Assembly: GCA_032718475.1 (NCBI GenBank)
Contig: JAUCBJ010006518.1
Location: 1-64,000, forward strand
Direction of reading: 5' to 3'
Length of the DNA: 64,000 nucleotides
Source: Nemertoderma westbladi
Lineage: Eukaryota; Animalia; Xenacoelomorpha
A program made the translations under genes and the position numbers. The notes under the pieces are model-generated. The model ran no database searches. It saw nothing but the letters and a program-made list of their open reading frames with translations, and was not told the DNA's origin. Numbering within the stretch: the stretch's first letter is position 1; each line of letters begins with the position of its first letter. Below, one piece after another: positions 356 through 57,300 of the stretch.

Positions 356-3300
356 GTCAGTTACGTCCGTTCCGTATTATCTAGTTCCACTATAGTTACT
401 ATCCAAACTTTATTTCCTGTTGCTATATATATACTTAAGAACGTTTCTTAAGGTGTGTTTTCTGTGTTCTATATTTTTGTAGGTGTTGTTGTATTTTGGT
501 GTTCTAAAACGTGTTTCTGTGTTGTAAATTTTTGGATGTGTTTCTATTTTTGTGTTCTAGAATGTGTTTATGTGTTACAATTTTGGATGTGTTTAACTAT
601 TTCTGTGTCTATTTCTAGAACCTTGGTGTGTTTGCCCTTGTCGACGAAGAATGTCTGTTCCCGAAGGCCACGGACAAGTCCTTTGTAGAGAAACTTTACA
701 ACGCCCACAACAACCACCCGAAGTTCTGCAAACCCGACTTCAGGTTAGAAAACAAAGTGTAACATTATTGGTAGAATTTATCAAATTTTAAAATAGGGAA
801 TTGATAGAGAGTCTATTTGGAAAATGTTTAGTCTAATATTATTAACAAATTTCACCCTCCAGTCAGAAGTTCTTGCAAAGGTGACCGTTTGCACTTATCG
901 CATCGGTACAGTCTGCTATTTGGTCGTATCTCTGTATTTAAATATATTCATCTGCATGGTAGGTAATGTATATTTACAGTATGCATGACCACAATATATA
1001 TCGTCACAGATTTATACCTCTCCATACTGTCCAGCCAAACTGTAGCTCTGTTAATAACTTAATCTCATGAAATTATGAAAAACGGTGTAAAAAAAACCAT
1101 CTAGTTTTTGCGGACGGCTTTTATAGTTTTATTCCATTGTAGTTATTATATTTTCATCTTGTATAATACTTATACTATAGTTTTATGTAAATTATTTTTA
1201 AAGGGAACAAGCTGATTTCAGTGTTCTGCATTACGCCGGGCGTGTTGACTATTGTGCTACACAGTGGCTAATGAAGAACATGGACCCATTGAACGATAAT
1301 ATTGTCGCCTTGTTCCAGAATAGCACAGATCCACTTATGGTCACTATATGGAAAGATGGTAAGTCAATTACAACAGAACTCCTGTATAAAACTGTCGAGC
1401 GAGCTATGCATGCACTTTTTTGTGGTTTATTAGTTTATTTATTGTCTGTCTGTCTGTTTGTCGGTCTTGCTCAATGTGTCGATAAGGTCAACTATATTAG
1501 GTTTTTTCTCCATAGCCGCGATCGTTAGTTTAAGTCAAACGCAACAGGATGCTGGGTTCGCCGGTGGTGGAGGCGGTAGGATTCGTAAAGGAATGTTTCG
1601 AACAGTCAGCCAACTCTACAAGGAACAGTTGGCGCGATTAATGGACACCCTCATCAACACAAACCCAAACTTCGTTCGCTGCATCATCCCAAACTATCAT
1701 AAAAAGAGCTTCAAGGTTTGTGTAGTTGAAACAATAACTTTTCGCTTAATTATTATTAAATTTTCTGCATTTCATATTAATATTAATATTAACAATGTTA
1801 TTTGTAACAGCAATATTTCGAAATCCTTATTTATATATTTTTTTTGGTTTATTTTTAGTTTCAAATTTAGTTTTAAACTTTTTTTAGCAGTTTTCATTCG
1901 ATGGAATATTGTGTTGGACCCGATTTATGACTTCCTGAATTACATCGCATATGTAGAAGAAAGGTAAACTGGTAGAAGGTTTAGAGTCCTAATAAATATC
2001 TTTGTTTAACATGCAGCTGGAATCTCATCTGGTTCTCGATCAACTCAGATGTAATGGTGTTCTAGAAGGAATCCGTATCTGTCGTCAAGGTTTCCCCAAC
2101 CGCATCCCCTTCCAGGAATTCCGACAGCGATACGAGTTGCTCACTCCCAATGTTATCCCTAAGGGGTTCATGGATGGGAGAAAGAGTGTGGATCTAATGG
2201 TGGGTTGGGGGGGATATGGGGAGAGTGTGGATCTAATGGTGGGTATAGGGGGAGAGTGTGGATCTAATGGTGGGTAGGGGGGATATGGGGAGAGTGTGGA
2301 TCTAATGGTGGGTAGAGAAGGGGGATATGGGGAGAGTGTGGATCTAATGTTGGGTAGGGGGATATGGGGAGAGTGTGGATCTAATGGTGGGTAGGGAAAG
2401 GGGGATATGGGGAGATTGTGGATCTAATGGTGGGTAGGGGGATATGGGGAGATTGTGGATCTAATGGTGGGTAGGGAAGGGGGATATGGGGAGATTGTGG
2501 ATCTAATGGTGGGTAGGGGGATATGGGGAGATTGTGGATCTAATGGTGTGTAGGGGGATATGGGGAGAGTGTGGATCTAATGGTGGGTAGGGGGATATGG
2601 GGAGAGTGATGATCTAATGGTGGGTAGGTGGATATGGGGAGATTGTGGATCTAATGGTGGGTAGGGGGTATTGGGAGAGTGTGGATCTAATGGTGGGTAG
2701 GGGGATATGGGGAGAGTGTGGATCTAATGGTGGGTAGGGGGGTATGGGGAGATTGTGGATCTAATGGTGGGTAGGGGGATATGGGGAGAGTGTGGATCTA
2801 ATGGTGGGTAGGGGGGTATGGGGAGATTGTGGATCTAATGGTGGGTAGGGGGTATTGGGAGAGTGTGGATCTAATGGTGGGTAGGGGGATATGGGGAGAG
2901 TGTGGATCTAATGGTGGGTAGGGGGGATATGGGGAGAGTGTGGATCTAATGGTGGGTAGGGGGGTATGGGGAGAGTGTGGATCTAATGGTGGGTAGGGGG
3001 GTATGGGGAGAGTGTGGATCTAATGGTGGGTAGGGGGGTATGGGGAGATTGTGGATCTAATGGTGGGTAGGGGGATATGGGGAGAGTGTGGATCTAATGG
3101 TGGGTAGGGGGATATGGGGAGAGTGTGGATCTAATGGTGGGTAGGGGGATATGGGGAGATTGTGGATCTAATGGTGGGTAGGGGGATATGGGGAGATTGT
3201 GGATCTAATGGTGGGTAGGGGGATATGGGGAGAGTGTGGATCTAATGGTGGGTAGGGGGATATGGGGAGAGTGTGGATCTAATGGTGGGTAGGGGGATAT

Positions 3301-54300: not shown

Positions 54301-57300
54301 TTGTATGCAGATTTCGGATCTTAAAAAGAAAACTGACGACGATTCCATTGCTATAGAAGCTGTCGAGGATGCGAAGAAGAAGTTGTTGAGAGAGATGGAC
54401 GCCCTGACAGCCAGGATGGAGAACCTGTCAGCAGACAACGAAAAGCTAGAGAAAACTAAGAGAAGACTTCTCGCAGAGCTGGACGACTCTGTGTTGGAGA
54501 TCGACCATCAACGCGGCAAGGTATCTAATTCTTTATATTTTGTTAATGAAAACTTTCCGAAACATTGGCCGTACATTGGCGTTACATTATAAACTATCCG
54601 AAACATTGGCCGTACATTATTTGTCTTAGGGACGGTATTTCATTTACACCGAGCAGTTTGCTTAAAAAACGAAACTTTATTTTTTTTAATATTACACTAT
54701 ATTGTTTGTGAGGGGTTGCAGTGGAAACTACATTTCAGCCATTCGGCGAAATGGCCCCCACCACGCCGTGATGAAATCTATCGATGTTTTTTTTTACTAT
54801 AGTGATGTAAAGTGCTAATTATAGCAACGTTTGCGTTGATTGTATTTATTATAATTTTGGAACTTTGAAATAAAATTTGTTTATTTTCATTTAGGTCGCC
54901 GAGTATGAGAAGAAACAGAGGAAATTTGATCAACATTTGAATGAAGAAAAATTAAAATCGGAAAGTTTGTCATCCGAGAAAGAAAGATGCCAGTCTGATG
55001 GTAAGTTCAGTTGAGAGAAAAATACGTGGGCGTTGCGTTGTGAGGTTCACAGTTTAATCGTAATTTATATTATTTAAATTTTTATATTATTATTATTAAA
55101 GTTAATTAAACGATAAGACGGATAGTATGTGTTGAGTGGCGATAATAAATGGCAATTTAATTTTATAGTGAGACAAAAAGACACTCAAATACTTTCAATT
55201 TCGCGGGATTTGGAAGAACTTCGGGAACGTTATGATGAACAGGAACGAGCCCATAGGAACATGAAGAACGAGTACGATAGTCTAATATCGAGCAAGGACG
55301 ACGCCGGGAAAAATGTAGGTTAAATGTAGAACGAGTACGATAGTCTAATATCGAGCAAGGACGACGCCGGGGAAAATGTAGGTTAAATGTAGAACGAGTA
55401 CGATAGTCTAATATCGAGCAAGGACGACGCCGGGAAAAATGTAGGTTAAATGTAGAACGAGTACGATAGTCTCGTATCGAGCAAGGACGACGCCGGGAAA
55501 AATGTAGGTTAAATGTAGAACGAGTACGATAGTCTAATATCGAGCAAGGACGACGTCGGGAAAAAGGTAGGTTAAATGTAGAACGAGTACGATAGTCTAA
55601 TATCGAGCAAGGACGACGTCGGGAAAAAGGTAGGTTAAATGTAGAACGAGTACGATAGTCTAATATCGAGCAAGGACGACGCCGGGAAAAATGTAGGTTA
55701 AATGTAGAACGAGTACGATAGTCTAATATCGAGCAAGGACGACGCCGGGAAAAATGTAGGTTAAACGTAAACGTAGCCGGGGGTGTAATTAGGTAATACA
55801 CACCCAGAAAAAGTAAAATATACGAATAAGTAAGGAAAGCAACCTTCCTCTACCTGTTTAATAGATTATTTGATTATTCCATATGTTTTAGGTGCACGAA
55901 CTGGAGAGGGCTAAGCGATCGATGGACGCCCAGTTAGCTGAGCTAACGAACCAGTTGGAGGAAACTGAAGACCAGTTGCAACTGGCGGAGGACGAGAAAC
56001 AGAGGTTGGAGGTGAACTTCTCGGCGGCCAAGGCGGCCCACGAACGGGAACTGCAGGCCAAGGATGAGCAGGCGGAAGAGAAGAGGAAGAGCATCCTGCG
56101 ACAACTGCGGGAGATGGAGACCGACCTGGAAGACGAGCGGAAGCAAAAGTCGTCCGCGATAGCCATGAAGAAGAAATACGAAGCGGATCTAAAGATACTA
56201 GATAGTCAGCAGGACATTGCCAATAAGAATAAGGAGGACGCTCTCAGACAGTACCGTAAGATTTCGGGTAAGTTCTAATTATTATTATACTATAAAGTTA
56301 TAGTTTGTTGTGTTTAATAGAAATTGTTATTTATTTAGTAATTAATAATTGTTTGTTATTGCATAAACCAAACCCATTGAACTAGATTACAGTATACATA
56401 CAGACGGTGTTGTTTAGGCCTACCTACTCGAACCGGTAGCTGCAGTTCCTGAGTAGCGTGAACATACACTGTTTCGACATACCGGTACTGAGGCCTATCG
56501 ACTAACTACGGTGTGCGGAGATGTAGGCCTACTGTTGTACCGGTACACTATACAGATGGTCAGAGAAGTGAAAGTATGCTGCTGTGGGAGACCTGTACCA
56601 GGAGTACCGGTAACATGCCTAACTAATATGCTGTGTCCTATGGGCTCTACTGTAATTTTACCCTCCGTAATAACAAATCCACCCGCCGTATAAAGCGTCA
56701 TTATGTGCATCCTCTTCCATCTCTTTGGAGTTACATAATATTTATCCTCGTTATTTGGATGGTTCCTATTTATATATAAATGTGAACTTTTCAGGACAAG
56801 TGAAGGAATTACAGCGGGAATTAGATGACGTTTCTAGACAACGAGATGAAATGGGGGCTTCTTCTAAGGAAGCGGAGAGAAAGGCGAGATCATTGGAAGG
56901 CGATATCAAACAGCTTCAAGATGTTAGTTATAGGCCTAATTCTAATAAAAATAAATAAATAATTATCTATATTAAAATATATAACCCCCAACCCAGGCAA
57001 CAACTATTACTATCTCAGCTATTGTGTTGCTGCCGTTCCCACACCGTACACCCCAATTTACGTTAATATATTTAAGGTAAGGAACAGGTTACTGTGGCAC
57101 GCTATTCTAACCAAAACAATAAACTAAAGTCAATAGAACACGTTAGTTATATATCGACCCCCTCCATAATCTATATCTGTAACAAATTATGAGGTGGTGA
57201 TTGGTAACCTAATTCAATAACGATTTGTCTTTAATATTATTATCTTGATTTTTTTAATTGAATTAATTTTAATTATTGTGGTCTTTATCGGTTGTTACAT

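What the first reader, a model, noticed from the sequence alone, without database searches (positions are those of the whole stretch)
2183..55765. Repeated seeding of tandem arrays at 5' splice sites, in two genes on opposite strands
Five unrelated arrays have a unit that spans an exon end and its GT donor: 37 bp (donor 2199), 15 bp (11322), 48 bp (18454, minus strand), 38 bp (22697) and 63 bp (55314). That is 5 of the 23 modelled introns, and no array spans an acceptor. Each array extends downstream in its own gene's direction, and sizes form a series from 4 to about 680 copies. This points either to a mutational process tied to transcription or splicing at donors, or to a first-donor-wins splicing rule that makes such duplications harmless. 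Either way, coding sequence becomes satellite DNA and inflates introns.
Basis: partly seen in the sequence, partly recalled or inferred. Interest (0 to 1): 0.88.

Follow-up and report, generated by a model that had tools for sequence, protein, structure and literature searches.

The report
Five splice-donor minisatellites in two genes
In two overlapping animal genes, five short pieces holding an exon end and its splice signal are copied 4 to about 680 times into the next intron, and assembled RNA uses the first signal in the three cases tested; this is a known kind of repeat in an extreme form, and the local excess at these signals may or may not reflect a mutation bias.

Summary
Observation confirmed. 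Five unrelated arrays span 5 of 23 donors in a non-muscle myosin II gene and a nested antisense gene, and fill 56% of the window. DNA contigs of two samples support the three large arrays. Donors 22697 and 55314 were not tested in RNA. This is the known 'mirage'/human F7-type minisatellite, and first-donor choice is published (PMC1557585). This scan noted such arrays before in other genomes, at donors and at acceptors. Corrections: zero acceptor arrays is not significant (0.5-1 expected), and a decayed 53-bp array probably reaches acceptor 619. Downstream direction follows from geometry. Size does not track age. Still open: 5 donor arrays against 0.5-1.1 expected (P about 0.001 or less), an excess that purging of exonic and acceptor arrays and GC matching do not remove. 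The window was picked after the fact and no genome was held, so a donor-linked mutation bias is neither shown nor excluded.

The parts
215..61082 (+). Non-muscle myosin II heavy chain gene, 3' part: 21 exons, 20 introns in the window
   Evidence: Open 1481-aa model; Pfam Myosin_head, IQ, Myosin_tail_1; best hits myosin-10, 55-56% identity over the model; exons 1-5 joined in spliced contig
2183..7313 (+). A1: 37-bp array, 137 copies; unit = 17 exon + 20 intron bases; spans donor 2199
   Evidence: 92 of 137 junction copies identical to the first donor at -3..+6; spliced contig leaves at 2199 into exon 6
11317..11370 (+). A2: 15-bp array, about 4 decayed copies; 6 exon + 9 intron bases; spans donor 11322; later GT sites at +15, +45, +51 are in frame and stop-free
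   Evidence: contig length arithmetic fits the first donor
13257..19799 (-). Nested antisense gene of unknown family, 4 exons (19799-19505, 19108-18970, 18686-18454, 14182-13257), 529 aa, inside myosin intron 9
   Evidence: spliced contigs; 7 distant homologues; no Pfam or NCBIfam family for the exons and homologues scanned
14507..18487 (-). A3: 48-bp array, about 82 copies; 35 exon + 13 intron bases; spans donor 18454; in-frame stop at codon 3 of read-through
   Evidence: 43 of 81 identical donors; spliced contig joins 18454 to 14182
22660..48835 (+). A4: 38-bp array, 674-678 copies, 26 kb; 33 exon + 5 intron bases (equally readable as the last 38 exon bases, whose first bases resemble a donor); spans donor 22697
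   Evidence: 630 of 678 identical donors; interspersed variants, 34-unit block repeated at lag 88; short-read depth 11,768 against about 21 single-copy in X3; not tested in RNA
55261..55773 (+). A5: 63-bp array, 8 copies; 54 exon + 9 intron bases; spans donor 55314; each unit carries an in-frame stop
   Evidence: 6 of 8 identical, 2 closer to consensus; 7 off-register script hits dropped; no reads laid
454..621 (+). Decayed 53-bp, 3-copy array that abuts and probably spans acceptor 619 (candidate acceptor-side mirage)
   Evidence: spliced contig uses the last acceptor, 619

Best explanation
These are 'mirage'-type minisatellites: a short piece spanning an exon end and its donor was duplicated in tandem, likely by ordinary slippage or repair at short direct repeats, was likely tolerated because the first donor is used (seen in assembled RNA for three of the five), and likely grew by unequal exchange to as many as about 680 copies. 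Shown: anatomy, open reading frames, first-donor use at A1 and A3 directly and at A2 by length, array units in two DNA samples, variant maps with nested block duplications. Inferred: microhomology seeding (short direct repeats seen at A1, A4, A5; none at A2; A3 unclear) and the growth mechanism. The excess at donors most likely combines after-the-fact choice of a striking window in a repeat-rich genome (68% of the window is tandem repeat) with anchoring: selection keeps the first unit, so deletions cannot remove the seed as they can for a mid-intron array. That last step is inference only.
For: Units, donors and frames. First donor in spliced contigs: loose end behind 2199 is exon 6; record position 1477 matches the value expected for the first A2 donor; loose end at 18454 is exon 4, depth 2784, with 0 depth in the neighbouring array bin. 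Later in-frame stop-free donors exist at A1 +39 and A2 +15, +45, +51, so decay of aberrant mRNA cannot alone explain the choice there. Same arrangement with first-donor scanning in human F7, plus CBS, 6-16, LMNB2, PDGF (PMC1557585); mirages at both intron ends in amphioxus that do not disturb splicing (PMC3087553; PMC3902484). Eight of 13 arrays in the gene span do not span a donor, so arrays seed widely.
Against: The excess of about 5- to 10-fold at donors survives purging of exonic and acceptor seeds and GC matching; anchoring and window choice were not tested. A4 and A5 were not tested in RNA. The spliced run holds A4 units at summed depth 1603 in one bin against 409 for the mRNA contig, which is unexplained: pre-mRNA over 678 copies or use of later donors both fit. 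Contigs drop rare variants, so minor use of later donors is invisible. The RNA sample differs from the window at place 241, so its unit spacing (and the +39 frame) may differ. In human CBS and 6-16 later donors are partly used.
Confidence: 0.62

Rival explanations
1. Duplications are seeded preferentially at exon borders, donors above all, by a transcription- or splicing-coupled lesion (for example polymerase pausing or an RNA-DNA hybrid where the 5' splice site is recognised); first-donor choice then lets them persist.
For: 5 of 12-13 arrays against 0.5-1.1 expected under every null tried; five unrelated units, two genes, both strands; intronic share of each unit is only 5-20 bases; Ebner et al. 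call the origin of mirages unclear; earlier scan notes (unchecked) call such arrays common in some invertebrate genomes.
Against: One window chosen after the fact; 5:0 not significant; counting either splice site gives P 0.02 for 5 of 12; acceptor-side arrays exist in amphioxus and probably here; breakpoints vary, with no fixed position relative to the donor; microhomologies fit ordinary slippage.
Confidence: 0.27
2. The arrays are kept for a function: decoy donors that tune splicing or expression, or, at A4, a chain of AG-GT recursive splice points that removes the 29-kb intron stepwise.
For: 630 of 678 A4 junction copies keep the first donor's sequence and are preceded by AG; A4 units are present in the spliced run.
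Against: High donor identity is expected from 94% overall unit identity; the A4 unit is purine-rich with no pyrimidine tract; donors have decayed in A2 (1 of 4 intact) and drift in blocks in A1; the five arrays share no sequence.
Confidence: 0.07
3. The arrays are assembly artefacts or the donors are mis-modelled.
Against: Single-copy DNA contigs of X1 stop at 2214, 18459 and 22693 and those of X3 at 2238 and 18459, where array-shared words begin; X3 joins an A1 unit to the far flank; X3 depth implies roughly 570 copies of A4; 44, 22 and 58 distinct unit variants in patterned order; junctions confirmed by spliced contigs and homologues.
Confidence: 0.02

Closest known systems
Human F7 intron 7 37-bp VNTR (Borensztajn et al. 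2006, PMC1557585; read: abstract, Introduction, Discussion); the same Introduction lists CBS intron 13, 6-16, LMNB2 and PDGF
   Same: First unit spans the exon end and donor; identical donors repeat into the intron; the most upstream donor is used.
   Different: Those have 5-26 copies and one array per gene. Here four arrays lie in one gene and one in a nested gene, with up to about 680 copies (26 kb), and units are mostly exon-derived (F7: 4 exon + 33 intron bases).
'Mirage' minisatellites of amphioxus: Adh3, globins BflGb6/BflGb9, troponin C, PGBD5 (PMC3087553 and PMC3902484, passages read; Canestro et al. 2002 not held, seen only as cited there)
   Same: Tandem duplications of exon-intron boundaries in an invertebrate, unrelated units, length-unstable, no disturbance of splicing, origin unclear.
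   Different: Mirages occur at both donors and acceptors and the globin cases have 6 units or fewer; here the five clear cases are all donors and three are multi-kilobase. The host animal is not identified here.
Internal tandem repeats at exon-intron boundaries of human segmental-duplication genes (PMC2812944, passages read)
   Same: Repeats at exon-intron boundaries change gene structure.
   Different: There they often create new introns or alternative transcripts; here the introns are flanked by normal coding junctions and the protein is unchanged.

Membership tests
Mirage / F7-type splice-site minisatellite | Head-to-tail array with a unit of about 10-160 bases | tested here: met
   Periods 15, 37, 38, 48, 63
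Mirage / F7-type splice-site minisatellite | Terminal unit spans a real exon-intron boundary | tested here: met
   5 of 5 by open frame and homologue alignment; 3 of 5 also by spliced contigs
Mirage / F7-type splice-site minisatellite | Splice signal reiterated in the intron | tested here: met
   Identical donors 92 of 137, 1 of 4, 43 of 81, 630 of 678, 6 of 8, first copy included
Mirage / F7-type splice-site minisatellite | Normal splicing at the authentic (exon-proximal) site | tested here: inconclusive
   Met for A1, A3 (direct) and A2 (length) in one run of contigs; A4 and A5 untested; minor isoforms invisible in contigs
Mirage / F7-type splice-site minisatellite | Copy-number variation between alleles or cells | tested here: inconclusive
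   X1 and X3 contigs break at different places in the first A1 units (2214, 2238) and variant maps show block duplications, but no allele lengths were measured
Recursive (ratchet) splicing array | Pyrimidine tract and AG directly before a reformed donor | tested here: not met
   A4 has AG-GT but a purine-rich unit with no tract; defining feature recalled, not read
Recursive (ratchet) splicing array | Stepwise junction reads in nascent RNA | not testable with these tools
Donor-linked mutational hot spot (proposed, not an established family) | Genome-wide excess at donors over acceptors and matched intron sites | not testable with these tools
   No genome held; local excess P about 0.001 but post hoc; donor-acceptor contrast not significant

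The most novel reading that the evidence does not exclude
In this animal, 5' splice sites are mutational hot spots: transcription or early spliceosome assembly seeds short tandem duplications across donors at about 7-10 times the background, first-donor choice hides them, and they grow into multi-kilobase satellites, so exon ends are a main source of the genome's intron length.
Probability: 0.22. Interest if true: 0.8.

Novelty: new member of a known kind. Interest (0 to 1): 0.42.

Why it matters
The repeat type and first-donor choice are known, so the arrays alone are not new. The case is extreme: five in 23 introns and one of 26 kb with about 630 identical donors, far above the 3-26 copies in the papers read here. 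If an excess at donors holds genome-wide it would speak to a question that the mirage papers leave open (how these arrays arise) and tie splicing to mutation and intron growth. The locus also gives a natural test of first-donor scanning outside mammals, including in-frame stop-free competitors. For annotation, such arrays put hundreds of false exon-end matches into introns.

Tried and rejected
Whole genome: none held, so no genome-wide count; no earlier notes on this genome or look-alikes. Run search listed no RNA holder, but run X4, guessed as DNA, proved spliced and was used as RNA by inference. Depth tables inside arrays skip multi-place contigs and were used only roughly. My first exon 6 donor (7772) broke the frame and was corrected to 7768. 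The idea that the consensus-like in-frame donor at A2 +51 extends exon 8 by 17 residues was rejected: contig length and homologue register fit the first donor. Selection filter alone and GC content alone were rejected as explanations of the excess. A probe test for hidden duplications at all 23 donors and 23 acceptors found the five known donors, one further weak donor (53218, p 0.03) and three weak acceptors (619, 51729, 60977; p 0.007-0.02, uncorrected); permissive TRF added only low-complexity hits at acceptor 22573. Nested gene: no hit in the word-indexed search, Atlas unavailable, no Pfam or NCBIfam family. Literature: eight searches listed no genome-wide donor-versus-acceptor count of such arrays; the library lacks most subscription papers, and Canestro 2002 and Gao and Lynch 2009 were not held, so this is weak evidence of absence. 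PMC12783039 and PMC10078293 (passages) were not relevant. No supplements were read.
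Full report
What is there. The window holds the 3' part of a non-muscle myosin II heavy chain gene on the + strand: 21 exons that join to 1481 residues without a stop, with myosin head, IQ and tail families and 55-56% identity to myosin-10-like proteins of two fishes, a sea star and a mammal. No close relative was listed (best 63-70% on one exon); the host is an animal that I did not identify further. 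Inside myosin intron 9 lies an antisense gene of four exons and 529 residues with distant homologues of similar length and no named family. Tandem arrays fill 43.4 kb (68%) of the window, and the five in question 35.9 kb (56%).

The observation. TRF finds all five arrays at the stated places and periods. Each first unit contains an exon end and the GT donor: 17+20, 6+9, 35+13, 33+5 and 54+9 exon+intron bases for A1 to A5 (read). The four myosin junctions align without gaps to 4 of 4 homologues tried, and the A3 junction to 3 of 3 with 0-2 residue gaps. Junction copies identical to the first donor at -3..+6 number 92 of 137, 1 of 4, 43 of 81, 630 of 678 and 6 of 8; for A5 seven off-register script hits were dropped. 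Without the arrays the five introns would be 121, 356, 324, 2893 and 118 bases instead of 5235, 404, 4271, 29031 and 577; the 2893 still holds a 2.5-kb 19-bp array.

Are they real? Four coded runs hold the locus. X3 matches the window at place 241, where X1, X2 and X4 differ, so X3 may be the source and X1 is probably another individual. Single-copy contigs of X1 end at 2214, 18459 and 22693, and of X3 at 2238 and 18459, where words shared with the arrays begin; X3 has a contig running from an A1 unit into the far flank, and its depth on A4 units is 11,768 against about 21 for single-copy DNA, roughly 570 copies. Variant maps show 44, 22 and 58 distinct units in patterned order, with a 34-unit block repeated 88 units later in A4, as expected of a minisatellite that grows by block duplication.

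Which donor is used? Run X4 was guessed as DNA, but its contigs skip introns at canonical ends (4 of 4 introns among exons 1-5; one minus-strand intron), so I treat it as RNA. A 3793-base contig (depth 409) leaves the genome at 2199 and continues with the first 30 bases of exon 6: the first A1 donor is used. A contig of the same length and depth, which I take as the same one, covers exon 10 as record positions 1-116 and has base 2199 at position 1477, exactly the value expected if exon 8 ends at the first A2 donor. A second contig (depth 2784) joins 18454 to exon 4 of the nested gene with no mismatch, and the array bin beside it has depth 0. Later donors that are in frame and free of stops exist at A1 +39 and A2 +15, +45 and +51, so decay of faulty mRNA cannot alone account for the result there, provided the RNA individual has the same spacing. 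For A3, A4 and A5 any later donor brings a stop (codons 3, 11, 3), so decay could hide its use. A4 and A5 were not tested. Against a clean picture: X4 holds A4 units at summed depth 1603 in one bin, which may be unspliced RNA over 678 copies or later-donor use; and contigs drop rare forms.

More than chance? I collapsed every array to one unit (18.2 kb of gene span) and asked how often a random seed of each period would cross a donor. Of 15 merged arrays, 13 lie in the gene span with period 10 or more; a 3-bp and an 11-bp array were left out. Expected donor-spanning arrays are 0.84-1.06 of 13, or 0.47-0.70 of 12 without the 292-bp repeat, against 5 seen (P from 4.5e-5 to 1.4e-3). Removing seeds that fall wholly in exons or across acceptors, which is what a pure selection filter would do, barely changes this. 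Matching GC gives 0.99 expected, P 0.0013. So the first-donor rule explains survival but not the excess. But the window was singled out because it looked striking, so these P values overstate the case, and no genome was held to repeat the count.

What does not hold. The lack of acceptor arrays is not significant: 0.47-1.03 expected, P of zero 0.31-0.61, sign test 0.06. A decayed 53-bp array ends 10 bases before acceptor 619 and its units end in the same acceptor-like word, with a 5-base insertion in the last unit; it is probably an old acceptor-side array (weak, uncorrected), and the spliced contig uses the last acceptor. The 24-bp array ends 20 bases before the last acceptor and repeats a branch-point-like word (motif recalled). 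Downstream direction is forced by geometry. The 4-copy array is the most diverged (82%) and the 8-copy array the least (97%), so size is not age.

Mechanism. Comparing the exon context of each array start with its far end shows short direct repeats at A1, A4 and A5; in A5 the unit is a hybrid of the exon word and the similar intron word, and in A4 the unit can be read as the last 38 exon bases whose start resembles a donor. A2 shows none and A3 is unclear. This fits ordinary slippage or microhomology-guided repair (inference), then tolerance through first-donor use (shown for 3 of 5), then growth by unequal exchange (inferred). For the excess I favour window choice plus anchoring of the first unit by selection (0.62 overall), with a border- or donor-linked mutational bias as the live rival (0.27).

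What is known. The human F7 intron 7 minisatellite has the same build, and Borensztajn et al. showed by mutagenesis that the most upstream donor is chosen; they list four more human genes, two with partial use of later donors (PMC1557585; abstract, Introduction, Discussion). In amphioxus such repeats are called mirages, occur at both intron ends, do not disturb splicing, and their origin is called unclear (PMC3087553 and PMC3902484, passages). Earlier notes of this scan, unchecked by me, report single donor arrays, acceptor arrays and one gene with seven affected borders in other genomes; they gave me the F7 and mirage leads. Eight paper searches listed no genome-wide donor-versus-acceptor count, but the original Adh3 paper was not held.

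Verdict. Real, well supported, and a new and extreme member of a known kind. The one open, testable point is the excess at donors. Interest 0.42.

Noticed in passing
window 13257-19799 (-): Nested antisense gene, 529 aa, strongly represented in the spliced run, with a conserved histidine-rich motif in exon 3 shared with unnamed homologues P0121, P0122, P0125 (about 25% identity); no Pfam or NCBIfam family. A metal-binding enzyme is a guess.
   Followed up: partly
window 22840-22980: A4 repeat units are present in the spliced run at summed depth 1603 while A1 and A3 units show none; unexplained (pre-mRNA, later donors, or table artefact).
   Followed up: no
window 48836-51332: The 19-bp array (130 copies) starts in the last decayed A4 unit and contains a donor-like GT and a branch-point-like word; it may be a secondary array seeded on a decoy or ancestral donor.
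   Followed up: partly
window 58479-60956: 24-bp array repeating a branch-point-like word followed by AG, ending 20 bases before the last acceptor; decayed copies near 58479-58560 are separated from the main array by a 1-kb insert (58563-59563) with inverted ends, probably a DNA transposon.
   Followed up: partly
window 12073-12869: Foldback-like element with 140-base inverted arms enclosing the 17-bp arrays.
   Followed up: partly
window 20280-22500: Very high-copy dispersed repeats (depth up to 10^5 in DNA runs), including the 292-bp three-copy repeat.
   Followed up: no
window 53223-53394 and 53674-53977: A 170-base piece starting 5 bases after donor 53218 is repeated at 53774, inside a 190-base palindrome.
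   Followed up: no
window 2047-2090: A second spliced-run contig (6946 bases) matches 44 bases of myosin exon 5 at about 90%, probably a paralogous myosin heavy chain.
   Followed up: no
window donors generally: Many donors begin GTTAG (743, 10401, 11322, 11898, 51928, 56922, 57505, 18970).
   Followed up: no
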